This document shows positions 12,135 to 23,767 of a DNA stretch of 40,944 nt, one piece after another. The stretch lies in contig JBJEIV010000326.1 in NCBI GenBank assembly GCA_051877395.1, positions 1 through 40,944 on the forward strand, given 5' to 3'. This DNA is from Candidatus Ornithomonoglobus sp. Lineage in GTDB: Bacteria; Bacillota; Clostridia; UBA1381. The notes under the pieces are model-generated. The model saw nothing but the letters and a program-made list of their open reading frames with translations. It was not told the origin of the DNA and did no database searches. The first letter of the stretch is position 1. Every line of letters starts with the position of its first letter. Position numbers and translations under genes: made by a program.

Positions 12135-13433
12135 TTAATCTTTTTCCACTGCCGCGAATGCGTCGTCAAGCGCGGCGATAAGGTCATTCACATTTTCAAT
12201 GCCTATTGAAAGTCTTATTGTGTTGGGCTTTATACCCTGCTCAAGAAGCTCCTGCTCACTGCACTGTGAATGTGTTGTTGTTGCCGGGTGAATTACAAGC
12301 GACTTAACATCCGCAACATTTGCAAGAAGTGAGAAGATTTCAAGATTATCAATAAACTTCTGCGCCTTTGCCTGATCTCCCTTAATCTCAAAAGTGAAGA
12401 TTGAGCCTGCTCCGTTCGGGAAATACTTCTTGTAAAGCTCATGACTCGGATCATTCTCAAGCGACGGATGGTGAACCGCCTCTACCTGCGGATGCTTACT
12501 GAGATACTCAACAATCCTGAGTGAATTTTCAACATGACGCTCAACTCTGAGTGAGAGCGTTTCAAGTCCCTGAAGGAAGATGAACGCATGGAACGGTGAA
12601 AGAGTTGCGCCTGTGTCACGGAGAAGAATTGCTCTTATGTATGTAACGAACGCCGCAGGTCCTGCCGCCTCCGCAAAGGATACACCGTGATATGACGGGT
12701 TCGGCTCTGAAATCCACGGATATCTGCCCGACGCCTTCCAGTCAAACGTGCCGCCGTCAACGATTACGCCGCCAATTGCCGTTCCGTGACCGCCGATGAA
12801 CTTTGTCGCTGAATGTACAACGATATCCGCGCCGTGCTCGATCGGTCTTAAAAGATACGGTGTGGCAAAGGTTGAGTCAATTACAAGCGGGATGCCGTGC
12901 TTATGCGCGATTTCCGCAACCGCCTCAATATCAATTATATTTGAGTTGGGGTTGCCGAGTGACTCGATAAAGATTGCCTTCGTCTTATCGTCTATTGCCT
13001 TCTCAAATACGTCTATGCCATCCTCCGGGTCAACGAACTTTGTTGTTACGCCGAAGCCCGGGAATGTGTGCTCAAGATAGTTATATGTACCGCCGTAGAT
13101 CGTCTTTGCAGCTACGATGTTCTCACCCTGCTGAGCAAGCGCCTGGAAGGTATATGCAAGCGCCGCAGCGCCCGATGCTACCGCAAGCGCCGCAACACCG
13201 CCTTCAAGAGCTGCCATTCTCTGCTCAAATACATCCTCTGTGGGGTTTGTAAGTCTTCCGTAGATATTACCCGCGTCACGAAGTCCGAAGCGGTCTGCCG
13301 CATGCTGTGAATCATGGAATACATATGATGTTGTCGCGTAAATCGGAACTGCTCTTGCGTCCGTAACCGGATCCGCCTTTTCCTGTCCTACGTGCAGCTG
13401 CTTTGTTTCAAATCTCCATTCTCTATTTGCCAT
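12135..13433 (-). CDS. metY: O-acetylhomoserine sulfhydrylase (aminocarboxypropyltransferase)
   Basis: Cys/Met-metabolism PLP enzyme (WRFETKQLHVGQE, NPT, SATKFIGGHG with the PLP lysine). The ATG at 13433 (MANREW) follows AGAAAGAGG. There is a 31-nt gap to cysK. Confidence 0.88.
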   Translation of the reverse strand: MANREWRFETKQLHVGQEKADPVTDARAVPIYATTSYVFHDSQHAADRFGLRDAGNIYGRLTNPTEDVFEQRMAALEGGVAALAVASGAAALAYTFQALAQQGENIVAAKTIYGGTYNYLEHTFPGFGVTTKFVDPEDGIDVFEKAIDDKTKAIFIESLGNPNSNIIDIEAVAEIAHKHGIPLVIDSTFATPYLLRPIEHGADIVVHSATKFIGGHGTAIGGVIVDGGTFDWKASGRYPWISEPNPSYHGVSFAEAAGPAAFVTYIRAILLRDTGATLSPFHAFIFLQGLETLSLRVERHVENSLRIVEYLSKHPQVEAVHHPSLENDPSHELYKKYFPNGAGSIFTFEIKGDQAKAQKFIDNLEIFSLLANVADVKSLVIHPATTTHSQCSEQELLEQGIKPNTIRLSIGIENVNDLIAALDDAFAAVEKD

Positions 13434-13497
13434 TTGAATTACCTCTTTCTGTGTCATTTATTCATTTCCTATCGGATTAGTATGTTTTGATATCCTT

Positions 13498-13525
13498 AGT
13501 ATATCACATTTTCCTGTTTTGTCAA
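13498..13525 (-). promoter_or_regulatory. Putative sigma-A promoter of metY-cysK
   Basis: On the minus strand: TTGACA (13520-13525), a 16-nt spacer, then TG-n-TATACT (13498-13503). It lies about 65 nt upstream of the metY ATG. Confidence 0.5.
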
Positions 13526-13640
13526 TACCTTTTTGCAATTTTTTTTATTTTTTTATATATTATTTACTCTGCGTTTTATAACTATATGATGATATCGGCT
13601 TGTTATGCCAGATATTCTCAGCTTAAACTGAGATAACTGC

Positions 13641-13678
13641 AAAACAAAAACCGCCCCAAGCCTGTGCTTTAAGCGGTT
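13641..13678 (-). terminator. Intrinsic terminator of an orphan short transcription unit
   Basis: On the minus strand: AACCGC..AAGC-loop-GCTT..GCGGTT interrupted stem followed by TTTTTGTTTT. Confidence 0.5.
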
Positions 13679-13789
13679 CTTGCAATCCTTTCATATGCCC
13701 TTTGACAAAAGTTCTTATTAGGTCTATATTAATGTTATATCCTCTTATGAAAATTACATATATACGTTTTACGAGTAGTATTATACCAT

Positions 13790-13818
13790 ATACTTCTCAT
13801 AAAGTCAAGAAAAACGAA
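13790..13818 (-). promoter_or_regulatory. Near-consensus orphan sigma-A promoter
   Basis: On the minus strand: TTGACT (13813-13818), a 17-nt spacer, then TATAAT (13790-13795). No annotated ORF follows, and a terminator lies about 110-140 nt downstream. Confidence 0.5.
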
Positions 13819-13859
13819 TATAATTATTCTTAAAATGAGTATTTTATGAGGTTTAAGTT

Positions 13860-14192
13860 ATGAAAAGAATATCTGAATTAAGGAAAGAGAAGCATTTAAA
13901 TCAAACCGGCTTAGGAATGCTTTTAAACGTATCGCAAAAAATGATAAGCGCATACGAGAGCGGAATACATCAGCCAAGCATTGAAACCCTGAAACAGATG
14001 TCAAAAATATTTAATGTTTCTGTAGATTATATAATTGAAAACACTGATATAAAGACACCTGTTGATCAGTTTGCAAGAAATGAGCTGAAATTTGAAGAAA
14101 TAGAGCTTTTGTCCATTTTCAAAGATTTAAGTAAAAATGAACAGCAAAGAGCAATAGGAATAATATTTGCGCTGAAGCATTACAACGACTGA
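13860..14192 (+). CDS. XRE-family helix-turn-helix transcriptional regulator
   Basis: 110 aa. HTH_3 signature LRKEKHLNQTGLGMLLNVSQKMISAYESGIHQPSIETLKQMSKIFNVSVDYI. Confidence 0.8.
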   Translation: MKRISELRKEKHLNQTGLGMLLNVSQKMISAYESGIHQPSIETLKQMSKIFNVSVDYIIENTDIKTPVDQFARNELKFEEIELLSIFKDLSKNEQQRAIGIIFALKHYND

Positions 14193-14201
14193 GTGCCGCA
14201 T

Positions 14202-14228
14202 AAAGGGGCAGTCAAACCGCCCCTTTTA
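14202..14228. terminator. Bidirectional intrinsic terminator between convergent genes
   Basis: Stem AAAGGGGC / GCCCCTTT (14202-14209 / 14219-14226) with flanking A and T runs. Confidence 0.7.
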
Positions 14229-14232
14229 AACA

Positions 14233-17200
14233 CTATTCAAGAATACTCATAATATCGTCAGCCGACATCTTCATAATATCACCCTCACCGTTGAGCGCTA
14301 TATCGGATAACGCCTCCTTGCGCTGCTGCATCTCGATAATTCTCTCCTCAATAGTTTTCTCCGCAATCAGCTTATATATCTGAACGTTTCTTTTCTGTCC
14401 TATTCTGTATACACGATCCGATGCCTGGTTTTCCGCCGAGACATTCCACCACGGATCATAATGGATAACTATATCCGCCCCTGTAAGATTCAGTCCCGTT
14501 CCTCCCGCTTTAAGCGAAATAAGAAACAGCTTTGTATCATCCGAATTAAAGCTGTTAACCATTCTCAGTCTTTCCTTCGGCTTTGTTTTTCCCGTAAGAG
14601 TGTAATAGCTTATACCCCGCTCGCTCAGATTTTTTGCTATTATATCAAGCATTGATGTGAACTGCGAGAACAGCAGTATCTTATGTCCGGCATTCATGCA
14701 GCTTTCAATAAGCTCCATGCACATTTCAAGCTTCGCACTTGTACCGGTATAATTCTCATATACCAGCGAAGGATCACAGCATAGCTGACGCAGTCTTGTA
14801 AGCATTGCAAGTATCCTAAGCTTATCCTCTCCGCTGCCGCTTGAGGAGCCTAACAACTGTTTGGTTTCAATTACATGCGCCGAATATATTTTGCTCTGCT
14901 CCGGCTCCATTTTTGCCTTCATAACCGTTTCGGTCTTATCCGGAAGCTCGGTAAGAACCTCTTTTTTCAAACGTCTCAGAATAAAGGGCGAGGTCAGCTT
15001 CTGAAGCGCCCGCACCGTGTTGTTATCATGCCGTTTTACAATCGGGGTCTCATAGGTCTTTTTAAAATATGTGTACGCATGAAGATACCCCGGCATGATA
15101 AAATCAAATATACTCCAAAGCTCGGCAAGACTGTTTTCAACAGGCGTTCCCGTCAGCGCAAAGCGCACTTTTGATTTTACCCCCTTTACCGCCTTTGCCA
15201 TCTGCGTGCCGTGATTTTTTATGTACTGCGCCTCGTCAATAAAATGCAGATCAAAGCTCATGTTTTCATATTTCGATATATCACGAATCAAAGTCTGATA
15301 TGAGGTTATCACCACATCGTATTCGTCTATCATATTAATATATTCATTCCGCTCAGACACTGTGCCTGCTATAGTAACAGCGCTCAGCGACGGAGCAAAT
15401 TTGCGGATTTCGCTTTCCCAGTTCAGCGCAAGCGATGAGGGGCATACGACAAGAAACCTGCCGTGTCCTTTATTTGCCGCCTTCATATCAAGCATAAGCG
15501 AAATAGCTTGTAATGTTTTTCCCAGACCCATGTCATCCGCCAGTATTCCGCCGAAGCCGTATGCTGCAATCGTTTTCATCCATATAAAGCCGTATTTCTG
15601 ATATTCTCTCATAACCGGCTCAACCTCCGCCGGAAGCTCCCAGCTCTGAGCTTCGTCCATGAGAGAATTATACTGCTTTATAAGCCGTTTAAACTCACTG
15701 TTTCTTGCAATCCGCATTCCGTCAGCATCATTCTGTATACCGTTAAGATACAGCATTCTGTACTGCGGAAGCCTGATATTCTCCTTGAGAAGCGCCTTGT
15801 CGGTGATGTTGAGATTTTCCGCCAGCTCCGCAAGCTCCCGCAGTCCGTTATCGACCGTCATAAATGAACCGTCTTTTAACCTGTGGTACTTTTTTCCCAT
15901 ACGGTACGACTTCAGACCCTCAACAAGCTCCTCTATCGTATACCCTTGGGCGGTGACATCAAGCGCAAGCAGATTGCTTTCCGCCCTCACGCCCACAACC
16001 GGATGCGCCGGAGGTCTTACATTTATCCTCTTGAACTTCTCGCTTGCATAGATATCCATCAGCTCCGAAAGCCTGTCCAGACCTTCCGTCATAAACCGAT
16101 ATATCCTCTCATCACCCTCTATAACCAGCGGCTCTGTCAGATAATGTCTGTAGTCAAAATACTGCTGAACCGTCTGCTCGGCTGCCGTTTCTCCGCTGTA
16201 GTCGCAGAACGGGTTCTCGCTCTTTTTATAAAATGCGGCATAGCTTTTCCCGTCATACACAAATTCAAGACGCGCGGTTATCATATCCTTATCGGGCGCA
16301 TCCACATACAGTCTCGTTTCAAGCTCCGGCGGCGCGTACTGCTCAACCAGATCAAGTCCTTCTATGTCAATATACGGTATCAGCGGCTTTATCACCGCGT
16401 TGTAGAATGCGGGCATATCCGCGTTTGAAATACATATTTGTTTCTTGCTCCTGAACGCCTCGCACAATCCGCATACCATTCTTGTATACTTAACGTCGCA
16501 TATATAAAACTGTTTTTGTCTGTTACTGAAAAAATACGCATGTCTGCCGCTGCCGCAGTATACGAACTCTTTGTCAAGCTCTATATAATATCTTCCGCTG
16601 CTGTTTACCGCAATGTTAAGGTGAAGCTCCGGATTTTCAGATTTAATATAATACCGCTCACCCGAAAAGCTGATATACTCATCACAATACAATTCAAAAA
16701 AATCATCTATCCACCGTTTATTTAACTCATGAGTTCTTTTTTTGTCATAAAAGCTATACTCATACCCATAGCCGGAGGTCTTATATATATTCATCGCAAG
16801 ATTGACCACTCTGCGGCTCTTTTCATCAACCGCATCCCAGTCATGATGAAAGGTAAGCTCCTTTCCGTAGCGCTCGGTTGCGCGGTTTGCAAAATTTGAA
16901 TACAAATTGTCTATATTTTTTACAATATACGATCTTCCGTGCTCTTTTCCTATCTTAAGAATAAACGACAAATTATTATATTCGTCGTATTCCAGCTCCG
17001 GCACAATACGAACCCGTTCATCAGATACATTATTCAGGGCCTCACCGGCAGCATTGCTGCTGTAGTATTGCAATAGATACCCCACCTCACGAGAGCTGGT
17101 TCCCATCAGCTGATCCTTATTATCCCTCACCGCAAGCAGCGCCGCGGCCATATGCTTGCAGTAAGCGCCCCTGTCATAAGGACAGTTACAGTCAATTTCT

Positions 17201-17385
17201 GTAACGTTTCCGTCCGCGTCCAGACTGAGCGTAACCGTATAGGTTTTACTTCCCTTAACCTCAACGGCAAGGCTTCCTATAGCTGCCATTGCCTGTATAG
17301 AACGCACCCGCCCCTGCCTGTAATAGTTAAGTCCTCTATGATATATCGTACTGTTTATATAATTCCAGAAATTATTTATATGCAT
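14233..17385 (-). CDS. SWIM zinc-finger / SNF2-family helicase
   Basis: 1050 aa. N-terminal SWIM motif CNCPYDRGAYCKHMAAALL, then a long SNF2-associated middle region. SNF2 motifs are present: ILADDMGLGKT (I), DEAQYIKN (II), LTGTPVEN (III) and a helicase-C region (GGTGLNLTGADIVIHYDPWWN). Confidence 0.9.
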   Translation of the reverse strand: MHINNFWNYINSTIYHRGLNYYRQGRVRSIQAMAAIGSLAVEVKGSKTYTVTLSLDADGNVTEIDCNCPYDRGAYCKHMAAALLAVRDNKDQLMGTSSREVGYLLQYYSSNAAGEALNNVSDERVRIVPELEYDEYNNLSFILKIGKEHGRSYIVKNIDNLYSNFANRATERYGKELTFHHDWDAVDEKSRRVVNLAMNIYKTSGYGYEYSFYDKKRTHELNKRWIDDFFELYCDEYISFSGERYYIKSENPELHLNIAVNSSGRYYIELDKEFVYCGSGRHAYFFSNRQKQFYICDVKYTRMVCGLCEAFRSKKQICISNADMPAFYNAVIKPLIPYIDIEGLDLVEQYAPPELETRLYVDAPDKDMITARLEFVYDGKSYAAFYKKSENPFCDYSGETAAEQTVQQYFDYRHYLTEPLVIEGDERIYRFMTEGLDRLSELMDIYASEKFKRINVRPPAHPVVGVRAESNLLALDVTAQGYTIEELVEGLKSYRMGKKYHRLKDGSFMTVDNGLRELAELAENLNITDKALLKENIRLPQYRMLYLNGIQNDADGMRIARNSEFKRLIKQYNSLMDEAQSWELPAEVEPVMREYQKYGFIWMKTIAAYGFGGILADDMGLGKTLQAISLMLDMKAANKGHGRFLVVCPSSLALNWESEIRKFAPSLSAVTIAGTVSERNEYINMIDEYDVVITSYQTLIRDISKYENMSFDLHFIDEAQYIKNHGTQMAKAVKGVKSKVRFALTGTPVENSLAELWSIFDFIMPGYLHAYTYFKKTYETPIVKRHDNNTVRALQKLTSPFILRRLKKEVLTELPDKTETVMKAKMEPEQSKIYSAHVIETKQLLGSSSGSGEDKLRILAMLTRLRQLCCDPSLVYENYTGTSAKLEMCMELIESCMNAGHKILLFSQFTSMLDIIAKNLSERGISYYTLTGKTKPKERLRMVNSFNSDDTKLFLISLKAGGTGLNLTGADIVIHYDPWWNVSAENQASDRVYRIGQKRNVQIYKLIAEKTIEERIIEMQQRKEALSDIALNGEGDIMKMSADDIMSILE

Positions 17386-17511
17386 TTATAAATCCCTTAT
17401 CCCGCTATTGTACTCTCACGATGCACAGTGTAGCCTTTCATTTGATTTTGCTTTAATTTTATCATAACAATATAATTAATACAAGCATTTTTATGGCTTT
17501 TCAGAAAATAA

Positions 17512-17540
17512 TTGCACTATTTTATAAAATATGATATAAT
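17512..17540 (+). promoter_or_regulatory. Putative sigma-A promoter of the five-gene cassette
   Basis: TTGCAC (17512-17517), a 17-nt spacer, then TG-a-TATAAT (extended -10, 17535-17540). It lies about 60 nt upstream of the ASCH gene. Confidence 0.55.
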
Positions 17541-17602
17541 TATTGTACTACTTAGCATATAACGAAGCGTAAATTTTATGAATATGATACGGAGAAAGTG
17601 TA

Positions 17603-18004
17603 ATGGAAAGCGTAAAATTTCCAGATTGGGACATAAATGATGTATTTACAATACATTATATGAAGCTCAATCAAATACCATTTGATAAAATCAAGAGCGG
17701 AGAAAAAACAATAGAAATTCGTTGCAATGATGAAAAGCGGCAGATGTTAAAAGAAAATGATATTATTGTGTTTCAGCTTGTAGATAACGAAAATGAAACT
17801 ATAATAACAAAAGTTAAAGCACTATATAGATTTAAAACCTTTTACCAATTATATTCCGCGTTCAATTTTTCTGAATTTGGGTGCGAAGGCTATACCATGA
17901 GAAGAATGCTTGATGAAACAGAAATGATTTATTCCAAAGATAAAGAACAAAAATATGGCGCATTGGGAATACGGATTGAGGTTATAAATAGAGAGGTAAA
18001 CTGA
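17603..18004 (+). CDS. ASCH (PUA-like fold) domain protein
   Basis: 133 aa. FDKIKSGEKTIEIRCNDEKRQMLKENDIIVFQ is the typical ASCH N-terminal pattern. A GGAGAAAG RBS is present. Confidence 0.7.
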   Translation: MESVKFPDWDINDVFTIHYMKLNQIPFDKIKSGEKTIEIRCNDEKRQMLKENDIIVFQLVDNENETIITKVKALYRFKTFYQLYSAFNFSEFGCEGYTMRRMLDETEMIYSKDKEQKYGALGIRIEVINREVN

Positions 18005-18513
18005 TGAACATATATATATTCCGCGGCAAGTCCGCAACAGGTAAAACCACATTGACAAATATATTAAGCAAAAAACTCAATATTCCCGTTTTGCGTAAGG
18101 ATAATATATTCGATGAGTTATCAAAATACGAAAAGGATATATCTGTTTTGAACAGCGCAAGCTATGATATCCTCGCACGGCAGATACAAACTTGCATTGA
18201 TAATAATTCTGATGTGATAGTTGATATTGCCCTGCAGCATACGCCGTCATTTAAAGTATTTTTAAATAAAATTGATTTTAAGGATAGTACGATTTACCAA
18301 TTTTTCTGTGATTGCAGCAATGATGATATATGGCTTGAACGGTGGCGTGAAAGATTGAAAAATCCTCTGCCTAATCAGTATTTTAAAAATATTGATGAAA
18401 TTGTAGGGCATTATGACAAATGTGATATAGAATTGTTAAATAGTGAGATTGTTTTAGATAGTATACTAAAAATGGATGTCCTTATGAATAAAATTTTGGA
18501 GGTATTCAAATGA
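18004..18513 (+). CDS. Small P-loop NTPase / nucleoside-nucleotide kinase-like protein
   Basis: 169 aa with Walker A FRGKSATGKTTL at the extreme N-terminus. The start overlaps the ASCH stop (TGATG at 18002-18006). Confidence 0.65.
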   Translation: MNIYIFRGKSATGKTTLTNILSKKLNIPVLRKDNIFDELSKYEKDISVLNSASYDILARQIQTCIDNNSDVIVDIALQHTPSFKVFLNKIDFKDSTIYQFFCDCSNDDIWLERWRERLKNPLPNQYFKNIDEIVGHYDKCDIELLNSEIVLDSILKMDVLMNKILEVFK

Positions 18514-18545
18514 AGTTAATATAGAAAGATCGTGAATTGATACAG

Positions 18546-18890
18546 ATGGCTACTGATATTATACGAAAAAATTATGACAGCGTAAATTACTGGCATACGG
18601 TAGGTGCAGCTGTGCGTACAAAAAGCGGCAAAATATATTTGGATGCTAATTGCGACTCAGTAAGTCATGGTTCGTGCGCAGAATTTATTGCTATAGGTGC
18701 GGCTGTGACGGCAGGAGAGCGTGAATTTGATACTATTGTTGCGGTGCTTGGAGGCGAGCATAAGAAAATTCTTCCGCCCTGTGGGAACTGCCGGCAGATG
18801 ATGTATTGCTATGATAAAAATATCAATGTAATTGTAAATGATACTACAAGGGAAAACATACTGGATTTGTCGAAATATCCATGTGATTAA
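18546..18890 (+). CDS. Cytidine-deaminase-fold zinc enzyme (small homotetrameric CDA / blasticidin-S-deaminase-like)
   Basis: Zinc and catalytic motifs SCAEFIAIGAAV (C-A-E) and PCGNCRQMM (P-C-x2-C). About 114 aa counted from the ATG at 18546. Confidence 0.75.
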   Translation: MATDIIRKNYDSVNYWHTVGAAVRTKSGKIYLDANCDSVSHGSCAEFIAIGAAVTAGEREFDTIVAVLGGEHKKILPPCGNCRQMMYCYDKNINVIVNDTTRENILDLSKYPCD

Positions 18891-18906
18891 TAGATTGGAG
18901 AAAAAT

Positions 18907-19425
18907 ATGAGTAGAGAGATATGGGATGCATATGACAAGGATGATAATAAATTAGGATATGACTTGTTCCGAGACGAGCCTGTACCAACAGACGTATATC
19001 ATATTGTTGTTGAGATATATGTTTTCTCCCATGACGGCAGGGTTTTGATAACACAGCGCGCGGCTAACAAAACATATCCTTTAAAATGGGAAAACACTGG
19101 TGGTTCAATTTTAAAGGGAGAAACGCCGATACAAGGCGCTATCCGAGAATTGAAAGAGGAAACAGGAATTGCTGTAACAGAATCACAGCTAAAGCTTGCA
19201 TATACGGAAGTCAAGCATCCGCCAATATATAAATGTTTCGTTGCGATTGTTGATGGAAACGAAAAAATTACCTTGCAGGAGGGTGAAACTGTTGACTATA
19301 AATGGCTGCCGTATGAGGAGTATTTGGAACTACTTAAAACAGATGAATTTGTTGACAGAGTGGCAGATAGCTTTATGCGTCATATTGATGAAATAGAAGA
19401 AATTGTACAATTAAGGTTAAAATGA
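18907..19425 (+). CDS. NUDIX hydrolase
   Basis: NUDIX box GGSILKGETPIQGAIRELKEETGI. The ATG at 18907 follows a GGAGAA RBS. The ORF-track extension to 18838 overlaps the deaminase gene. Confidence 0.85.
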   Translation: MSREIWDAYDKDDNKLGYDLFRDEPVPTDVYHIVVEIYVFSHDGRVLITQRAANKTYPLKWENTGGSILKGETPIQGAIRELKEETGIAVTESQLKLAYTEVKHPPIYKCFVAIVDGNEKITLQEGETVDYKWLPYEEYLELLKTDEFVDRVADSFMRHIDEIEEIVQLRLK

Positions 19426-19973
19426 AAAATATTATACATATCTATGGAGCGTCCGGATCAGGCACATCAACATTAGGAAGAAAAATAAGTGATGAGTTGG
19501 GTTATAAATTTATTGACACAGACGACTATTTTTGGATGCCTACAAATCCTAAATATCAAATAAAGCGTGACAGAGTGAAGCGAATTTCTCTAATGATGAA
19601 AGACATTGAAAAATCTGATAATGTTGTTATCAGTGGTTCTCTTGTTGATTGGGGCGATGAGTTAATTCCGCTGTTCACACTTGCCGTCAGATTAATAGCT
19701 GATACTGATATAAGGATTGCGAGATTACGAAAGCGCGAGCATAATGAATTTGGTTCAAGAATAGATTTTGGCGGTGACATGTATGAGCAACATGAACAAT
19801 TTATTGAATGGGCTAAACATTATGATAATGGAGATGTTAATATGAGAAGCAAAGCAAAACACGATGAGTGGGAAAAGTTTTTGCTATGCAAACAAATTGT
19901 ATTAAACGGTGCAGATGATTTGGATAGTAATTTTCAGAAAGTAAAGGGGGAATTAGTTAATTGTGCGGTATAA
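19422..19973 (+). CDS. P-loop kinase-like protein (adenylate-kinase / topology-modulation FlaR-like AAA family)
   Basis: 183 aa with Walker A IYGASGSGTSTLG. ATGA overlap with the NUDIX stop (19422-19425). Confidence 0.7.
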   Translation: MKNIIHIYGASGSGTSTLGRKISDELGYKFIDTDDYFWMPTNPKYQIKRDRVKRISLMMKDIEKSDNVVISGSLVDWGDELIPLFTLAVRLIADTDIRIARLRKREHNEFGSRIDFGGDMYEQHEQFIEWAKHYDNGDVNMRSKAKHDEWEKFLLCKQIVLNGADDLDSNFQKVKGELVNCAV

Positions 19974-20089
19974 CAAGTAGACGGCAAGTAGCCATGCTCG
20001 TATAAATTTGATTTTGTTTTTGGGATAGTCTCAAACCCTTTTTATGCATTTGTTATAGAATTTGATGTGAAGTTTGTTATGTATGCGAA

Positions 20090-20118
20090 TTGATTACCTG
20101 TTACATTAATGATATAAT
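20090..20118 (+). promoter_or_regulatory. Putative sigma-A promoter of the ATPase/DUF4435 pair
   Basis: TTGATT (20090-20095), a 17-nt spacer, then TG-a-TATAAT (20113-20118). Confidence 0.45.
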
Positions 20119-20233
20119 ATTTTAATATAATGTTTTATCATTAATTTTTCTGTAACTATAAGAAATTGTGTTGAACATCGCAAATATTTGTATTAATAAA
20201 TTAATATTGAAATATACTATTAGGAGGATTAAT

Positions 20234-21637
20234 ATGTTTTACTATTTTTATGATGATGACGAATCGGTGGTGAATAATTTGAATTCAACAAAGCTTGAAT
20301 ATATAAAAATAAAAAAATTATTTGGGTATGCTAATGTTGAGTTGCATTTTGATAAAGAAGTTAATATATATATTGGAGAGAATGGTCTAGGAAAAACAAC
20401 AATCTTAAATTGTGTTTATTATGTATTAAAAAAGAAATATGACAAACTTGCTGAAATTGATTTCTCATCAATCCATATAAAATTCACAGAAGAGCGTAGA
20501 GAATTTGTTCTTAGCGTATTTGATATTAACGATTATAATAAACGAAAAATGCCTAGACGTAGATGGTATGATGAAGATTTGATTAAGCTTATTCTTAATG
20601 AAGCTACCATGGGATTATATACTATCAATGGTATTGATAGTGAAGAATTAGAGTTTGCTACTTTAAAGCTATCACGCGTGGATGGTATTCCTATGGATAT
20701 AGCTAGACGTCAGATAATGGAATATCTAAAAATAGGAAGATTTAATTCTGATGGAGAGATAAAGAAAGGTAATTACAAAAAAGTAATTGAATTAAATGAA
20801 GCATTAGATGAGTATATAACCCAAAAAATTTTATATTTCACAACATATAGACGCATTGAAAATGATTTCTCAAAGCTTATAAATAAGGGAGAACGAGTTC
20901 AAGAATCAGATATGCTGATTAGGTTTGGTATGGCTGACGTAGAAAAGTCGATTGGAAATATATTAAATTTGATTCGTGAAAATTCAAGAGAGAGTTTTAA
21001 TAAGATGACAGGGGTTTTATTAAAACAATATGCTTCCAGAAACAAGATTAACAGCAATGTTTTGTCTGATATCTCAATAAATAAAGATATGTTAAAAATA
21101 ACTCTTGATAGATTAGGAAATGAAATAGCAGAAGATGATAGAAATAAGATAATTTCTTTATTAGATAACGGTGATATATATAAAAGAGAATATTCATATT
21201 TGCTTGATTTAATAATAAAACTTATAGATAATTACAATAAGCAAAAAGTTTATGATGATAAAATTCAAAATTTTGTTTATACTTGCAACAAATATCTAAA
21301 CGGAAAACAATTTGTATATAATCAAAGTGACTTGAAATTAGATATTAAACTACTTAATAACAAATTAAATAACATCAAGCTTATGCAATTGTCATCAGGC
21401 GAAAAACAGATTGTTTCTTTGTTTTCAAAACTATATTTGGAAAATGATAAGGATAGTATTTTGGTAATTGATGAACCTGAACTTTCGTTATCAATGAAAT
21501 GGCAAAAAATGTTGCTTCCAGATATTATGAGATCAGGAAATTGCAAACTTCTTTTAACTGTTACTCATTCACCTTTTATTTTCGAAAATGAATTTGATAT
21601 GGATGCACAAGAAATGAGAAATTGTATAACTAATTAA
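20234..21637 (+). CDS. ABC-type (AAA_15/21/23-like) ATPase, AriA-like component of a PARIS/AbiL-type defence pair
   Basis: The ATG at 20234 (MFYYFYDDD) follows an AGGAGG RBS. Motifs: Walker A GENGLGKTT, ABC signature LSSGEKQ, Walker B ILVIDEPELSL and H-loop TVTHSP. A long helical insertion sits between the ATPase lobes. Confidence 0.75.
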   Translation: MFYYFYDDDESVVNNLNSTKLEYIKIKKLFGYANVELHFDKEVNIYIGENGLGKTTILNCVYYVLKKKYDKLAEIDFSSIHIKFTEERREFVLSVFDINDYNKRKMPRRRWYDEDLIKLILNEATMGLYTINGIDSEELEFATLKLSRVDGIPMDIARRQIMEYLKIGRFNSDGEIKKGNYKKVIELNEALDEYITQKILYFTTYRRIENDFSKLINKGERVQESDMLIRFGMADVEKSIGNILNLIRENSRESFNKMTGVLLKQYASRNKINSNVLSDISINKDMLKITLDRLGNEIAEDDRNKIISLLDNGDIYKREYSYLLDLIIKLIDNYNKQKVYDDKIQNFVYTCNKYLNGKQFVYNQSDLKLDIKLLNNKLNNIKLMQLSSGEKQIVSLFSKLYLENDKDSILVIDEPELSLSMKWQKMLLPDIMRSGNCKLLLTVTHSPFIFENEFDMDAQEMRNCITN

Positions 21638-21653
21638 TTAGGGGGAATTAAAA

Positions 21654-22583
21654 GTGAATACTGAAGATAAAAGTTCTACTTCGCTTTTGGATGAAATGCG
21701 AACAGCTAGAGTATCATCAAATGTGGCTTTTATTAATTTTATTGATAATCATAATAAATTTAATAGTCATGTGTTTTGTTTTTACGAGGGAGAAGATGGA
21801 AAATATTATAACCAAAGAATAAAATCAATTATTGGGGACAATATAATACCCATAAAAACAGGTAACAAAAGAGAAACAATAAAAATTTGGAGAAAAATAA
21901 AATCGGAACCAATTTATAATAATGCGAAAAAGATGTTTTTTATTGATAAAGATATGGATGATATTCCAGAAGATAAAGATGAAGACTTATATATAACCCC
22001 ATGTTACTCAATTGAAAATTTTTATGTGAACTCTCAAACATTTGGTAGTATATTGGAATCTGAATTTTCTTTGAGTAGGCTAGATAACGATTATGCAAAA
22101 TGTTTGAATACTTTTGAAAAACTTTATGAACAGTTTAACAATGAAATGATTGAATTTAATGCCTTGATATTACTTAGGAAACAGAAAGAACCTGGAAATG
22201 GGAAAGTGAATTTGAAAAATATAAAAACACGTCAAATGATTTCAGTTAAACTTGATAGAGTAAAAAAAGGCTCTAAATATAACGAATTTATAAATCAATT
22301 AAAAACCAAGTTGAGTGTAAATGATGAAGAGTTAGCTGACGCTATAGACACAATTAAAACTTTAGGAGATTATCCAAATTTATTTCGAGGAAAAAATCAA
22401 CTTGATTTTATGGTAATCTTATTAAATATTTTGAAACAACTCAATGCAGAAGGAAAATTTTTTGATAAGAAGCAAACAAGCGTAACGATTAATTTGACTG
22501 GAAATCGCCTAAGTGAATTAAGTCAATATGCTGCATTTCCATCATGCTTAAAAGAATTTATTCAAAATCATAAGATTGCATGA
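21654..22583 (+). CDS. DUF4435 (TOPRIM/OLD-type nuclease) protein, AriB-like
   Basis: GTG start after a GGGGGA RBS, 16 nt after the ATPase stop. TOPRIM-like Glu motif FCFYEGEDGKYY and DxD motif FFIDKDMDD. Confidence 0.7.
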   Translation: MNTEDKSSTSLLDEMRTARVSSNVAFINFIDNHNKFNSHVFCFYEGEDGKYYNQRIKSIIGDNIIPIKTGNKRETIKIWRKIKSEPIYNNAKKMFFIDKDMDDIPEDKDEDLYITPCYSIENFYVNSQTFGSILESEFSLSRLDNDYAKCLNTFEKLYEQFNNEMIEFNALILLRKQKEPGNGKVNLKNIKTRQMISVKLDRVKKGSKYNEFINQLKTKLSVNDEELADAIDTIKTLGDYPNLFRGKNQLDFMVILLNILKQLNAEGKFFDKKQTSVTINLTGNRLSELSQYAAFPSCLKEFIQNHKIA

Positions 22584-22681
22584 AACTGTAGATTAATTGC
22601 TTATATGATAATATCCTTTACATAATTGTATTGAAACCATGTACCCGGGTCTGTGAAAAAAGTTGTGTAAGCAATATCTGA

Positions 22682-22941
22682 CAACACTCGACAAGGCGAA
22701 AATTACAGGTTTATTGGATATGTAAATTCAAGCTGATTGACAGAAAAAGCGATATACAAAAGCAACAGTTGATTGATACCTTTGTAAATTCAATATATGT
22801 TTATGATGACAAAATGCTAATTACATATAACTACAAGGACGGCGAAAAATGTATTGACTATGAGGAAATACAGAAATATATGAACAAAAAGAAAAACTCT
22901 GATAATCCTGAGGACTATCAGAGTTCGCCTTTTAATACTTT
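22682..22941 (+). pseudogene. C-terminal remnant of a (serine-type) site-specific recombinase
   Basis: The frame is open only from 22682. The segment LIDTFVNSIYVYDDKMLITYNYKDGEKCI resembles the conserved C-terminal tail of clostridial large recombinases. No catalytic N-terminal part is present. The ORF-track ORF then reads through the antisense of the tRNA. Confidence 0.45.
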
Positions 22942-23017
22942 TGGTACGCGATCAGGGGTTCGAACCCTGGACACCCTGATTAAGAGTCAGGTGCTCTACC
23001 AACTGAGCTAATCACGC
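22942..23017 (-). tRNA. tRNA-Lys (anticodon CUU), copy 1
   Basis: Minus-strand cloverleaf: GCGTGAT-TA-GCTC-AGTTGGTA-GAGC-A-CCTGA-CTCTTAA-TCAGG-GTGTC-CAGGG-TTCGAAC-CCCTG-ATCGCGT-A-CCA. The anticodon loop CUCUUAA gives CUU. CCA is encoded. The acceptor stem has G1-U72 and U4-G69 wobble pairs. Confidence 0.9.
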
Positions 23018-23079
23018 ATATATTTTGTTTTAAAAGAGCTTCAACCCGGAACACCTCATGCGAGGTATTCCGGATTTGC

Positions 23080-23155
23080 TGGTACGCGATCAGGGGTTCG
23101 AACCCTGGACACCCTGATTAAGAGTCAGGTGCTCTACCAACTGAGCTAATCACGC
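23080..23155 (-). tRNA. tRNA-Lys (anticodon CUU), copy 2
   Basis: 100 percent identical to 22942-23017. It is separated from copy 1 by a 62-bp spacer containing the hairpin CCGGAACACCTC / GAGGTATTCCGG. Confidence 0.9.
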
Positions 23156-23187
23156 ATATCTCTTATGTTCTCCCGAACACAAGAAAT

Positions 23188-23216
23188 ATAATACCACGAT
23201 TATTCCTGTTTGTCAA
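23188..23216 (-). promoter_or_regulatory. Putative sigma-A promoter of the tRNA-Lys tandem
   Basis: On the minus strand: TTGACA (23211-23216), a 17-nt spacer, then TATTAT (23188-23193). It lies about 30 nt upstream of the tRNA 5-prime end. Confidence 0.6.
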
Positions 23217-23254
23217 GCTTTTTTTTCATTTTTTTCGAAAAAATTTACGAAAAT

Positions 23255-23767
23255 TTAGCGCACTCCGTTAAGGTCAAACATATTGTTCATTTTATTTGAA
23301 TGTGCGTGGCATATCGCGAGCGCGAGACCGTCCGCAGCATCATCCGGCTTCGGAATTACATTGAGGTTCAGAAGCAGCTTTACCATGTTCTGAATCTGCT
23401 TCTTGTCCGCTCTGCCGTAGCCGGTTACACTCTGCTTTACCTGTAACGGTGTATACTCATATATGGGAACGTTTTTATTCCTTACCGCCACAAGTATTAC
23501 TCCCCTTGCCTGAGCGACGTTTATCGCGGTTTTCTGGTTTGAATTGAAAAACAGCTCCTCAATCGCAACAGCATCGGGATTGTACTTATTAATAAGCAGC
23601 GTCATTTCGTCATAAATCTTTTTCAGCCTGTCCACCGTAGACATACCCGCAGGTGTCGTTATCGCGCCGTATTCCAACGGTCTGAACTTGTTTCCCTTGT
23701 ACTCCAGTACCCCGATACCGACTATCGCATAGCCCGGGTCTACTCCTATTATTATCACTTTATTCAC
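23255..23767 (-). CDS. ruvC: Crossover junction endodeoxyribonuclease RuvC
   Basis: 170 aa. [17 protein letters not shown] carries the catalytic Asp, with further matches at [10 protein letters not shown] and [13 protein letters not shown]. Confidence 0.92.

What the first reader, a model, noticed from the sequence alone, without database searches (positions are those of the whole stretch)
17603..19973. Translationally coupled five-gene nucleoside/nucleotide-enzyme cassette (ASCH, P-loop kinase, cytidine-deaminase fold, NUDIX, P-loop kinase) in an AT-rich island
Seen in sequence:
- Five small co-directional genes lie behind one near-consensus extended -10 promoter (17512-17540).
- Their junctions are packed: TGATG overlap at 18002-18006, gaps of 32 and 16 nt, and an ATGA overlap at 19422-19425.
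- Every product has a fold that acts on nucleobases, nucleosides or nucleotides. These are ASCH/PUA-like, two Walker-A kinases, a CAE...PCxxC zinc deaminase and a canonical NUDIX box.
- The cassette sits directly upstream of a PARIS/AbiL-like defence pair, inside a compositionally foreign segment next to a tRNA and a recombinase remnant.

Established knowledge:
- As I recall, the anti-phage dCTP deaminases of Tal et al. 2022 are kinase-deaminase fusions that deplete dCTP.
- NUDIX and PUA-like/ASCH modules recur in defence islands.
- Small CDA-fold enzymes also detoxify cytosine-nucleoside antibiotics such as blasticidin S.

Inference: this could be a split, multi-enzyme nucleotide-depletion or modified-nucleotide-sanitising defence module. 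Alternatively it could be a nucleoside-antibiotic detoxification operon. I do not recognise this five-gene composition as a named system.
Basis: partly seen in the sequence, partly recalled or inferred. Interest (0 to 1): 0.8.

Follow-up and report, generated by a model that had tools for sequence, protein, structure and literature searches.

The report
Mosaic small-enzyme cargo operon
Five small enzyme genes do sit packed behind one promoter, but each turns up in other bacteria with quite different partners, so this is a patchwork of mobile-element cargo genes rather than a new five-part defence system.

Summary
The five genes and their domain calls are real: ASCH, a P-loop kinase, a small zinc cytidine-deaminase fold, NUDIX and a second P-loop protein. 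Two corrections apply. The deaminase carries a TTG->TAG nonsense codon at codon 5; its original ATG overlapped the kinase stop. The second "kinase" lacks the Walker-A lysine, which is a trait of its whole family.

The set is not a conserved unit. None of 79 genomes with an ASCH homologue has the kinase or deaminase families within 3 kb. Homologues of the first kinase and the deaminase (71-88% identical) lie in about eleven different arrays, next to GNAT, CAT, APH, nucleotidyltransferase, TPMT and HAD genes. NUDIX homologues have none of the other four nearby. A sister MAG (91% nt identity) has ASCH-kinase followed by a HAD hydrolase at the same ATGA junction.

The segment ends in the last 110 codons of a large serine recombinase that reads into tRNA-Lys. 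Intact relatives of this element carry such arrays as cargo.

Best reading: a mosaic cargo operon of independent small-molecule-modifying or housecleaning enzymes in a decayed integrative element, beside a separately promoted PARIS system. A coherent pyrimidine pathway or a defence role is not excluded but has no support from conservation. Interest is low.

The parts
14233..17385 (-). SNF2/SWIM helicase gene with host-like GC (0.448). It is the left boundary of the AT-rich segment.
   Evidence: ORF. Generic SNF2 hits in PADLOC. An 89%-identical gene flanks the array in the sister MAG L002. GC.
17512..17540 (+). Promoter-like site for the array: TTGCAC, 17 nt, TGaTATAAT.
   Evidence: Sequence. 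The extended -10 motif occurs 10 times in the window against 2.4 expected. The -35 is only 3 of 6, so the consensus scan did not list it.
17603..18004 (+). ASCH-domain protein, 133 aa, with the octapeptide G33-x-K35-x-x-E38-x-R40 (GKER type).
   Evidence: Pfam ASCH 4e-12. K35 and R40 are invariant and E38 is at least 90% conserved among 21 homologues. PDB relatives are PH0355, PF0469 and PF0455, all uncharacterised. The role of the GKER Lys/Glu in ac4C deacetylation is described in bioRxiv 10.64898/2026.02.27.708502.
18004..18513 (+). kinA: P-loop small-molecule-kinase fold (AAA_33), 169 aa, with a canonical Walker A. Its 3' end carries the RBS and the ATGA overlap for the next gene.
   Evidence: Pfam. 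AlphaFold model pLDDT 95.2. The best PDB match is 2rhm, a 'putative kinase', followed by NMP, gluconate and APS kinases. Junction alignment.
18510..18524 (+). Ancestral start of the deaminase gene (ATG 18510, GGAGG upstream), closed by an in-frame TAG at codon 5 (18522-18524).
   Evidence: Homologues begin MELTLKDKELIQ. The DNA alignment shows TTG in L092 against TAG in the window. An independent assembly of the same sample is identical here (L001).
18537..18890 (+). Remaining ORF of the zinc deaminase (cytidine-deaminase / blasticidin-S-deaminase fold), with C47-A48-E49 and P81-C82-G-N-C85.
   Evidence: Pfam dCMP_cyt_deam_1. NCBIfam cytidine-deaminase models all score below cut-off. The PDB matches 2d30 CDA (1.8e-12) and 1wn5 blasticidin-S deaminase (7.2e-12) are about equal.
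18907..19425 (+). NUDIX hydrolase, 172 aa, with a canonical Nudix box.
   Evidence: Pfam NUDIX 5e-19. No NCBIfam equivalog is reached: MutT 44.2 against 97.9, NudB 52.1 against 103. Box read from the sequence.
19422..19973 (+). kinB: PRK06217-like P-loop protein (AAA_18), 183 aa, with a lysine-less Walker A (GASGSGTST).
   Evidence: NCBIfam NF004861 scores 199.9 bits against a cut-off of 203. P-loop statistics. Unrelated to kinA beyond the P-loop. A 78%-identical copy directly follows a kinA homologue in L082-84.
20090..20118 (+). Separate promoter-like site in front of PARIS: TTGATT, 17 nt, TGaTATAAT.
20168..22583 (+). PARIS defence pair: AriA (20168 or 20234 to 21637) and AriB (21654-22583). 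GC is 0.27. It is a neighbour of the array, not part of it.
   Evidence: PADLOC AriA 3.4e-33 and AriB 1.7e-33. Pfam AAA_15/AAA_21 and DUF4435. GC.
22682..23011 (+). Stump of a large serine recombinase: the last 110 of 522 codons. Its reading frame runs into tRNA-Lys.
   Evidence: tblastn with the recombinases of L133 and L085 gives 73-76% identity at 1e-42 to 1e-50. The same geometry is seen with an intact recombinase and tRNA-Lys in L133, L085 and L087.
22942..23155 (-). Two identical tandem tRNA-Lys(CTT) genes (22942-23017 and 23080-23155). This is the integration site region.
   Evidence: ARAGORN, Rfam, repeat D1.

Best explanation
The five genes are a mosaic cargo operon. It is the accessory-gene array of a decayed integrative element that inserted at tRNA-Lys by a large serine recombinase.

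Each gene is an independent, horizontally shuffled member of a pool of small enzymes. Gut Clostridia carry this pool in variable, tightly packed, co-directional arrays together with GNAT and CAT acetyltransferases, APH and nucleotidyltransferases, TPMT/TehB methyltransferases and HAD hydrolases.

The genes are co-transcribed from one extended -10 promoter and chained by start/stop overlaps. They do not form a co-evolved multi-component system.

Inferred function: each enzyme acts on its own small-molecule substrate, either modifying xenobiotics or antibiotics or housecleaning nucleosides and nucleotides.
- ASCH: N4-acyl-cytosine or cytidine amidohydrolase-type chemistry.
- The deaminase: cytosine-nucleoside deamination, now crippled by a nonsense codon.
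- NUDIX: pyrophosphohydrolysis of an unknown nucleoside-diphosphate-X compound.
- kinA: ATP-dependent phosphorylation of an unknown small molecule.
- kinB: a P-loop protein of unknown activity.

Shown: anatomy, mosaicism, lack of conservation and the mobile-element context. Inferred: all substrates, and independent action.
For: 1. No conserved set.
- Of 79 genomes with ASCH homologues (35-60% identity), none has the kinA or deaminase family within 3 kb. Two have a NUDIX on the opposite strand and three have weak kinB-like hits.
- The 128 immediate neighbours of those ASCH genes fall into 167 Pfam families. The most frequent are NUDIX (7), GNAT (6), alpha/beta hydrolase (5) and APH (4).

2. kinA homologues (71-78% identity) lie in four other architectures:
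- kinA-kinB-CAT-?-GNAT (L082-84);
- HTH-nucleotidyltransferase-kinA-HAD-methyltransferase-HTH-serine recombinase (L085-90);
- peptidase S51-kinA-a different NUDIX-nadB (L091);
- HTH-GNAT-kinA-?-TehB/TPMT...serine recombinase (L133).

3. Deaminase homologues (74-88% identity) lie in these contexts:
- HTH-deaminase-GNAT-TPMT;
- metallo-beta-lactamase fold-deaminase;
- APH-HD/GNAT-TPMT-deaminase-?-GNAT-HIT;
- deaminase-GNAT-methyltransferase-GNAT;
- nucleoside hydrolase-deaminase-dCTP deaminase.

4. All 23 NUDIX-anchored loci returned (30-73% identity, about a dozen full-length) lack the other four families. The neighbours examined are GNAT, HAD, HTH and EEP genes.

5. The kinB family is found fused to GNAT (4 of 10 examined), HD, GrpB, histidine phosphatase, DUF1284 and NUDIX.

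6. The sister MAG L002 is 91.5% identical in nucleotides across SNF2-ASCH-kinA. It then continues with a HAD hydrolase that is 57% identical to the HAD following kinA in L085.

7. Three different genes (deaminase, HAD, kinB) are joined to kinA at the same ATGA junction.

8. GC steps coincide with these breakpoints: ASCH 0.31 and kinA 0.32, then deaminase 0.39 and NUDIX 0.38, then kinB 0.35, then PARIS 0.27.

9. Positions 22682-23011 are the C-terminal 110 codons of the recombinase of the L133 and L085 elements, in the same register with tRNA-Lys.

10. The deaminase is decaying in this lineage. It has a nonsense codon here, and only an internal fragment at 95% nucleotide identity survives in a related MAG.
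Against: - One promoter and tight coupling are what a pathway operon would also show.
- ASCH amidohydrolase followed by cytidine deaminase is chemically coherent.
- NUDIX recurs modestly near ASCH (7 of 128 neighbours), near kinA (L091) and fused to the kinB family. kinA-kinB adjacency recurs once. Some pairwise functional links are therefore possible.
- The sampling is of metagenome contigs, many of them short, and the sister contig ends 320 nt after kinA. Deaminase-NUDIX-kinB could lie further downstream there.
- The 'xenobiotic-modifying' label rests on guilt by association with Pfam family names. No substrate is known for any of the five proteins.
Confidence: 0.7

Rival explanations
1. The array is a coherent pathway for salvage or detoxification of N4-modified cytosine nucleosides. 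Substrates could be N4-acetylcytidine from RNA turnover, or N4-acylated or cytosine-nucleoside antibiotics. ASCH would remove the N4 acyl group and the deaminase would convert the cytidine product to uridine. A kinase would phosphorylate the nucleoside, and NUDIX would hydrolyse unwanted nucleotide products.
For: - The ASCH protein has the GKER octapeptide, whose Lys and Glu are essential for ac4C deacetylation in tested ASCH proteins (YqfB: PMC6972931, listed).
- Tetrameric cytidine deaminases convert N4-substituted cytidines (PMC9897663, abstract).
- In one context the deaminase homologue sits between a nucleoside hydrolase and a dCTP deaminase/dUTPase-family gene.
- A kinB-NUDIX fusion exists.
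- The genes share one promoter and overlapping junctions.
Against: - ASCH and the deaminase family never co-occur in the 79 ASCH loci or in the six deaminase contexts outside this window.
- The deaminase has a nonsense codon at codon 5.
- The sister MAG has a HAD gene in its place.
- The kinases have no detectable nucleoside-kinase signature; fold matches are generic.
- kinB lacks the Walker-A lysine.
Confidence: 0.15
2. The array is an anti-phage module that depletes or sanitises nucleotides. It would be a split analogue of the kinase-deaminase dCTP-depletion systems, working beside PARIS in a defence island.
For: - It lies directly upstream of PARIS on a mobile element.
- The elements that carry homologous arrays also carry defence-type genes: AbiEii; a Z1/HATPase/DNA methylase set; and an AAA_15 plus UvrD-helicase pair.
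- NUDIX hits the PADLOC candidate PDC-S07 at 1e-14.
- An ASCH family occurs in phages (phrog_19935, 4e-24).
Against: - ASCH and the deaminase have no PADLOC hit. The kinases have only P-loop-level hits, E 3e-4 to 6e-3.
- The PDC-S07 hit (52 bits) is weaker than the generic Pfam NUDIX hit (69 bits).
- The deaminase is a small CDA/BSD-type protein, not a dCTP/dCMP-deaminase fusion.
- PARIS has its own promoter and a different GC.
- Partners of the homologues elsewhere are acetyl-, phospho-, nucleotidyl- and methyl-transferases rather than defence genes.
- There is no conservation of the set, and the deaminase is nonsense-mutated.
Confidence: 0.06
3. The genes are ordinary chromosomal housekeeping paralogues of nucleotide salvage enzymes (cdd, cmk/udk/adk, mutT) that merely happen to be adjacent.
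For: Family-level similarity to cytidine deaminase, NMP kinases and MutT.
Against: - Every NCBIfam equivalog cut-off is missed, for example cdd 83.6 against 131 and MutT 44.2 against 97.9.
- GC is 0.31-0.39 against a host GC of about 0.46.
- Homologues at 71-88% identity sit on integrative elements in other taxa.
- The gene content differs between sister MAGs.
Confidence: 0.04

Closest known systems
Accessory (cargo) regions of integrative mobilizable or conjugative elements of Bacillota that use a large serine recombinase
   Same: - The layout seen intact in L133 and L085-L090 is: Cys_rich_VLP gene (minus strand), HTH regulator, a run of small co-directional enzyme genes, then a serine recombinase abutting a tRNA-Lys gene.
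- The window has the enzyme run and the recombinase C-terminus in the same register with tRNA-Lys.
- Gene content varies between copies.
   Different: - The element here is a remnant. The recombinase catalytic domain, the HTH regulator and the Cys_rich_VLP gene are missing.
- No left-end repeat was found.
- A PARIS pair occupies the space before the recombinase stump.
- I found no paper describing this element family.
Anti-phage dCTP deaminase systems (kinase-deaminase fusions that deplete dCTP).
   Same: A P-loop protein and a zinc-dependent cytosine deaminase fold are encoded close together on a mobile element next to a defence system.
   Different: - The deaminase is a 117-126-aa stand-alone protein of the tetrameric cytidine-deaminase / blasticidin-S-deaminase type.
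- It is not fused to a kinase, has no PADLOC hit and is not conserved next to either kinase.
ASCH amidohydrolases (E. coli YqfB; GKER-type ASCH proteins) and cytidine deaminases acting on N4-substituted cytidines
   Same: The ASCH fold and the GxKxxExR octapeptide with Lys and Glu are present. A CDA-fold enzyme with an intact zinc site is encoded in the same transcription unit.
   Different: - YqfB-type proteins have Thr in place of Glu.
- This family (RCNDEKR motif, about 115-133 aa) is untested.
- There is no genomic association between this ASCH family and the deaminase family.
Blasticidin-S deaminase (BSD/bsr) and tetrameric cytidine deaminase (Cdd)
   Same: CAE and PCxxC zinc ligands are present. 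The protein aligns to A. terreus BSD (1wn5) with a single one-residue gap at 7e-12, and to B. anthracis CDA (2d30) at 2e-12. Like resistance deaminases, its homologues sit among acetyl- and phospho-transferase genes.
   Different: It scores below every NCBIfam cytidine-deaminase cut-off. Its substrate is unknown. The copy here is interrupted by a stop codon.
PARIS (AriA/AriB)
   Same: The neighbouring pair at 20168-22583 matches the AriA and AriB profiles.
   Different: PARIS is a two-gene system. The five upstream genes are not part of its definition. They have a different promoter and GC, and they occur elsewhere without PARIS.

Membership tests
Conserved multi-gene system (operational definition) | The same gene families recur together, in the same order, in unrelated genomes. 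| tested here: not met
   With ASCH as anchor, 0 of 79 loci have kinA or the deaminase. With kinA, the deaminase or NUDIX as anchor, the partners differ each time. Only kinA-kinB recurs, once.
Conserved multi-gene system (operational definition) | The set is conserved at least among the closest relatives. | tested here: not met
   Sister MAG L002 (91.5% nt identity) has a HAD gene after kinA where the window has the deaminase. The contig ends soon after, so genes further downstream are unknown.
Anti-phage dCTP deaminase | Match to the defence deaminase profiles, with a large fused kinase-deaminase architecture. | tested here: not met
   The deaminase has no PADLOC family at E<=0.01. It is a stand-alone 117-aa ORF, 126 aa in its ancestral form.
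Tetrameric cytidine deaminase (cdd equivalog) | Score above the curated NCBIfam cut-off. | tested here: not met
   NF005314 83.6 against 131; NF004064 60.9 against 74; TIGR01354 57.6 against 113.65.
Cytidine/deoxycytidylate deaminase zinc-binding superfamily | C/H-A-E and P-C-x-x-C zinc-binding motifs, and a Pfam score above the gathering threshold. | tested here: met
   PF00383 scores 29 against 25. C47-A48-E49 and P81-C82-G-N-C85 are read from the translation.
Blasticidin-S deaminase | Specific relationship to BSD rather than to CDA; activity on blasticidin S. | tested here: inconclusive
   1wn5 at 7.2e-12 against CDA 2d30 at 1.8e-12. The spacing before CAE matches BSD: the 2d30 alignment needs a two-residue gap there and the 1wn5 alignment needs none. 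The N-x-D at the ribose-binding position resembles the CDA N-x-E as I recall it from memory. Activity cannot be tested here.
ASCH domain, GKER subgroup | Pfam ASCH above the cut-off, and the octapeptide GxKxxExR. | tested here: met
   47.1 bits against 21.2. The motif is G33, K35, E38, R40. K35 and R40 are invariant and E38 is at least 90% conserved.
ASCH domain, GKER subgroup | N4-acetylcytidine amidohydrolase or deacetylase activity. | not testable with these tools
   Known only by analogy with the 19 proteins tested in bioRxiv 10.64898/2026.02.27.708502.
NUDIX hydrolase | Nudix box GX5EX7REUXEEXGU, and Pfam above the cut-off. | tested here: met
   69 bits against 21.1. The box G66...E72...R80-E81-L82-K-E84-E85-T-G87-I88 is read from the sequence.
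MutT / NudB / other named NUDIX equivalogs | Score above the curated cut-off. | tested here: not met
   The best is NudB at 52.1 against 103; MutT scores 44.2 against 97.9.
P-loop NMP/small-molecule kinase (kinA) | Walker A GxxxxGK[ST] and a kinase fold. | tested here: met
   G8-KSAT-G13-K14-T15. Model pLDDT 95. Foldseek probability 1.00 to 2rhm and to adenylate, UMP/CMP, gluconate and APS kinases. The substrate is not assignable.
PRK06217 family (kinB) | Score above the NCBIfam cut-off. | tested here: inconclusive
   199.9 bits against a cut-off of 203. The family has 868 representatives at E<=1e-10.
P-loop kinase (kinB) | Walker-A lysine. | tested here: not met
   The P-loop is GASGSG-T-ST. 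Across the family the position is T in 101, V in 15 and K in 6 of 150 representatives.
PARIS (neighbouring genes) | An AriA ATPase adjacent to an AriB DUF4435/TOPRIM protein. | tested here: met
   PADLOC AriA 3.4e-33 and AriB 1.7e-33; Pfam AAA_15/AAA_21 and DUF4435.
Functional large-serine-recombinase integrative element | An intact recombinase with the N-terminal catalytic (Resolvase) domain, and two element ends. | tested here: not met
   Only residues 413-522 of 522 are present. No third tRNA-Lys fragment or end repeat lies in 13400-23400. The element is a remnant.

The most novel reading that the evidence does not exclude
Gut Clostridia may carry a family of serine-recombinase elements that target tRNA-Lys. 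Their cargo would be assembled gene by gene at conserved RBS-ATGA junctions, giving an integron-like but attC-less shuffling of small enzyme genes. Within such arrays, the ASCH, CDA-like, NUDIX and P-loop genes seen here would form a working route for detoxifying or salvaging N4-modified cytosine nucleosides, including cytosine-nucleoside antibiotics.
Probability: 0.1. Interest if true: 0.55.

Novelty: new member of a known kind. Interest (0 to 1): 0.2.

Why it matters
This finding mainly serves as a caution. Tight packing, a shared promoter, a common 'nucleotide' theme in fold names and a defence neighbour together looked like a new multi-enzyme defence system. Comparative context shows a patchwork instead.

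What remains of value is modest:
- A pool of uncharacterised small enzymes travels on integrative elements of gut Clostridia next to resistance-type transferases. It includes a lysine-less P-loop family with hundreds of representative clusters and a CDA/BSD-like deaminase family. These proteins could be screened for antibiotic- or nucleoside-modifying activity.
- A family of serine-recombinase elements appears to use tRNA-Lys as its target.

Tried and rejected
- DNA search of the cassette against phage and plasmid collections gave one 131-nt ASCH match on a Clostridium plasmid and nothing in phages.
- IMG/VR scans with the kinA profile and with kinB found no relatives. A prophage-moron origin is therefore not supported.
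- An Rfam scan of 17300-23300 for a riboswitch or leader that might name the ligand found only the two tRNAs.
- A search for a left-end att repeat or third tRNA-Lys fragment found none, so the island limits could not be defined by repeats.
- Exact-sequence look-ups of kinA and kinB returned only short contigs from the same sample.
- The single-sequence structure prediction of kinB had pLDDT 44.7 and was unusable. A PDB sequence search for the kinB family gave only P-loop-level hits.
- The fold search for kinA gave generic kinase matches and no substrate clue.
- Literature searches for PRK06217 and the P-loop motif, for Cys_rich_VLP, and for serine recombinases targeting tRNA-Lys found nothing relevant.
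- I considered an integron-like cassette array and rejected it as such. The junctions are overlaps or 16 nt, leaving no room for attC sites, and no repeats lie between the genes.
- I considered that the in-frame TAG might be an assembly error. A second assembly of the same sample agrees, but it derives from the same reads, so an error is not fully excluded.

Full report
**What is there**

The window is a 40.9-kb contig of a Clostridia MAG close to Candidatus Ornithomonoglobus. The closest genome hit, L002, is 95% identical in the ASCH protein and 89% in the SNF2 protein.

Five co-directional ORFs lie between a divergent SNF2/SWIM helicase gene (14233-17385, minus strand) and a PARIS pair. Their Pfam assignments are as follows:

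| Gene | Coordinates | Pfam | Score / cut-off |
|---|---|---|---|
| ASCH | 17603-18004 | ASCH | 47.1 / 21.2 |
| kinA | 18004-18513 | AAA_33 | 32.6 / 27 |
| deaminase | 18537-18890 | dCMP_cyt_deam_1 | 29 / 25 |
| NUDIX | 18907-19425 | NUDIX | 69 / 21.1 |
| kinB | 19422-19973 | AAA_18 | 36.9 / 29.4 |

No gene reaches an NCBIfam equivalog cut-off. The nearest case is kinB against PRK06217, at 199.9 bits against 203. They are therefore not ordinary cdd, cmk, udk, adk or mutT orthologues.

- the TGATG and ATGA overlaps;
- CAE...PCGNC in the deaminase;
- a canonical Nudix box;
- a Walker A in kinA;
- a perfect extended -10 (TGaTATAAT, 17532-17540) with a weak -35.

TGNTATAAT occurs 10 times in the window against 2.4 expected by chance. 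A second copy at 20110 sits in front of PARIS.

**Two corrections to the observation**

First, the deaminase is nonsense-interrupted.
- Its homologues are 126 aa and begin MELTLKDKELIQ.
- The window keeps that start: ATG at 18510, preceded by GGAGG and overlapping the kinA stop as ATGA.
- Codon 5 is TAG, where L092 has TTG and L095 ATA.
- The '32-nt gap' is therefore a nonsense-interrupted 5' end. The 117-codon ORF could only be expressed by re-initiation at TTG 18537 or ATG 18546, neither of which has a good Shine-Dalgarno sequence.
- A related MAG retains only an internal fragment of this gene, at 95% nt identity. It lies next to a tyrosine-integrase N-terminal fragment and a 45-48-nt piece of tRNA-Lys.
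- The deaminase is thus decaying in this lineage.

Second, kinB has G9-ASGSG-T15-ST, with no Walker-A lysine.
- This is a family trait. Among the 150 best representatives the position is T in 101, V in 15 and K in only 6.
- kinB is unrelated to kinA beyond the P-loop.

**Is the five-gene set a unit?**

I tested this from four anchors.

ASCH anchor:
- The genome-collection scan returned 79 loci from other species, at 35-60% identity.
- None has a kinA-family or deaminase-family ORF within 3 kb.
- Two have a NUDIX on the opposite strand and three have weak kinB-like hits.
- The 128 immediate neighbours fall into 167 Pfam families. NUDIX (7), GNAT (6), alpha/beta hydrolases (5) and APH (4) are the most frequent.

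kinA anchor. Homologues at 71-78% identity lie in these architectures:
- kinA-kinB(78%)-CAT-?-GNAT;
- HTH-nucleotidyltransferase-kinA-HAD-methyltransferase-HTH-serine recombinase;
- peptidase S51-kinA-a different NUDIX-nadB;
- HTH-GNAT-kinA-?-TehB/TPMT...serine recombinase.

Deaminase anchor. Homologues at 74-88% identity lie in these architectures:
- HTH-deaminase-GNAT-TPMT;
- metallo-beta-lactamase-fold gene-deaminase;
- APH-HD/GNAT-TPMT-deaminase-?-GNAT-HIT;
- deaminase-GNAT-methyltransferase-GNAT;
- nucleoside hydrolase-deaminase-dCTP deaminase/dUTPase-family gene.

NUDIX anchor:
- 23 metagenome loci were found, at up to 73% identity.
- None has any of the other four families.
- The neighbours examined are GNAT, HAD, HTH, EEP and AraC/GyrI-like genes.

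The kinB family is found fused to GNAT (4 of 10 long representatives), HD, GrpB, histidine phosphatase, DUF1284 and NUDIX. The only recurrence of any pair is kinA-kinB, in one element type.

**Mosaicism is visible even within the genus**

- Sister MAG L002 aligns at 91.5% nt identity from SNF2 through ASCH and kinA. The match breaks at about window position 18526.
- The gene that follows kinA there is a HAD hydrolase (MKNIEWIFFDIGSTLVDE...). It is 57% identical to the HAD that follows kinA in the L085-type elements.
- The 3' end of kinA carries the RBS and an ATGA overlap for whichever gene follows: the deaminase here, HAD in L002, kinB in L083.
- Gene-level GC changes in steps at the same boundaries: ASCH 0.31 and kinA 0.32; deaminase 0.39 and NUDIX 0.38; kinB 0.35; PARIS 0.27; flanks 0.45-0.48.

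**Context**

- Positions 22682-23011 encode the last 110 of 522 residues of the large serine recombinase found intact in L133 and L085. Identity is 73-76%, with E from 1e-42 to 1e-50.
- In those loci the recombinase ORF also runs about 70 nt into a tRNA-Lys gene on the opposite strand. This is the same register as in the window (tRNA-Lys at 22942-23017).
- The intact elements have this layout: Cys_rich_VLP gene (minus strand), HTH regulator, a small-enzyme array, recombinase, tRNA-Lys. Defence-type genes lie on the far side: AbiEii; a Z1/HATPase/methylase set; and, in L082/L083, which have a tyrosine integrase rather than a serine recombinase in the fetched stretch, an AAA_15 plus UvrD-helicase pair.
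- The AT-rich segment 17386-22941 is therefore best read as the stump of such an element: a cargo array, a PARIS pair and a recombinase C-terminus.
- The catalytic domain, the regulator and the left end are missing. No end repeat was found.
- PARIS is confirmed (PADLOC AriA 3.4e-33, AriB 1.7e-33). It has its own promoter-like site and a lower GC, so it is a neighbour and not part of the array.

**Function**

What each protein could do is inference from its family.
- ASCH has the GxKxxExR octapeptide (G33, K35, E38, R40), conserved in its family. In GKER-type ASCH proteins the Lys and Glu are needed for N4-acetylcytidine deacetylation (bioRxiv 10.64898/2026.02.27.708502). E. coli YqfB is an N4-acylcytosine amidohydrolase (PMC6972931, abstract).
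- The deaminase is equally close to tetrameric cytidine deaminase (2d30, 1.8e-12) and to blasticidin-S deaminase (1wn5, 7.2e-12, aligned with a single one-residue gap).
- kinA gives a confident model (pLDDT 95). Its best structural matches are an uncharacterised 'putative kinase' (2rhm), followed by adenylate, UMP/CMP, gluconate and APS kinases. No substrate can be named.
- NUDIX has a canonical box but no equivalog.
- kinB has no solved relative.

The company these genes keep elsewhere is CAT, APH, nucleotidyltransferase, GNAT, TPMT/TehB, metallo-beta-lactamase fold, HAD and HIT. That is the vocabulary of small-molecule modification and housecleaning.

I therefore commit to independent small-molecule-modifying or housecleaning enzymes, co-expressed as mobile-element cargo (confidence about 0.7 for the architecture claim). 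Every substrate is unproven.

**Rivals**

N4-modified-cytidine salvage or detoxification pathway (about 0.15):
- It is chemically attractive: ASCH, then deaminase, then kinase, with NUDIX sanitising.
- It has hints in its favour: the nucleoside-hydrolase/dCTP-deaminase neighbours of one deaminase homologue and a kinB-NUDIX fusion.
- Against it stand the complete lack of ASCH-deaminase association, the nonsense codon and the HAD replacement in the sister MAG.

Anti-phage nucleotide-depletion module (about 0.06):
- It has only adjacency to PARIS and a NUDIX hit to a PADLOC candidate, which is weaker than the generic Pfam hit.
- The deaminase is not of the dCTP-deaminase defence type.
- No relatives were found in phage collections.

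Housekeeping paralogues (about 0.04):
- This is contradicted by composition, by the mobility of the homologues and by the missed equivalog cut-offs.

**Verdict**

The locus is an ordinary, if uncharacterised, mosaic cargo operon in a decayed integrative element.

Side observations may be worth separate attention: gene swapping at a fixed RBS-ATGA junction, a widespread P-loop family without the Walker lysine, and a serine-recombinase element family that targets tRNA-Lys. They do not raise the score of the finding as posed.

Noticed in passing
window 18510-18524: The deaminase gene keeps its ancestral ATG (overlapping the kinA stop, with GGAGG upstream), but codon 5 is TAG where relatives have TTG. 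This is a single-base nonsense change, and the first four codons are left as a mini-ORF.
   Followed up: yes
window 19446-19472 (kinB residues 9-17): The P-loop reads GASGSGTST, without the Walker-A lysine. Only 6 of the 150 best family representatives have K at this position; T, V, S, A or C replace it. The family is large (868 representatives at E<=1e-10), has no solved structure, and is often fused to GNAT domains.
   Followed up: partly
window 18495-18515; L002 2505-2530; L083 8490-8510: The 3' end of kinA supplies TGGAG and an ATGA stop/start overlap to three different downstream genes: the deaminase, a HAD hydrolase and kinB. The HAD gene in L002 begins with the same four codons (ATGAAAAATATT, MKNI) as kinB. 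This hints at recombination at gene starts.
   Followed up: partly
window 22682-23011; L133 8216-9790; L085 7126-8700: A family of large serine recombinases has reading frames that end about 70 nt inside a tRNA-Lys gene (CTT or TTT anticodon) on the opposite strand. This implies tRNA-Lys as the integration target. The window retains only the last 110 codons. I found no paper on this element family.
   Followed up: partly
L124 5995-6729 (and L125): A related MAG has an internal fragment of the same deaminase gene (95% nt identity to window 18559-18843). It lies beside a tyrosine-integrase N-terminal fragment and a 45-48-nt piece of tRNA-Lys, which suggests repeated insertion and decay at tRNA-Lys sites.
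   Followed up: partly
window 22942-23017 and 23080-23155: Two identical tandem tRNA-Lys(CTT) genes lie 138 nt apart, with identity extending 4 nt beyond the 5' end. One may be the copy carried in by the element.
   Followed up: no
window 20090-20145: The PARIS pair has its own strong promoter-like site (TTGATT, 17 nt, TGaTATAAT). It overlaps a 20-nt near-palindrome (20105-20124 / 20126-20145) that could be an operator.
   Followed up: no
L082/L083 1-2237: Upstream of the kinA-kinB-CAT array lies an AAA_15 ATPase (525 aa, faint DUF2813) followed by a UvrD-type helicase. By Pfam labels this looks Gabija-like. Other copies of the element carry AbiEii or a Z1/HATPase/DNA-methylase set. Defence genes and small-enzyme arrays therefore share these elements.
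   Followed up: no
window 17603-17659: The ASCH ORF has a 19-residue N-terminal extension with a good RBS (GGAGAAAG). It is shared with the nearest relatives (L002 over the whole ORF; L003 and L004 from residue 7) but absent from most homologues, which start at M20.
   Followed up: no
window 13860-17385: A 1050-aa SNF2 helicase with an N-terminal SWIM-type zinc finger (minus strand) lies next to a small HTH_3 gene (13860-14192, plus strand). It gives strong but generic SNF2 hits to DpdE and ZorD profiles. Its GC is host-like and it is conserved in the sister MAG.
   Followed up: no
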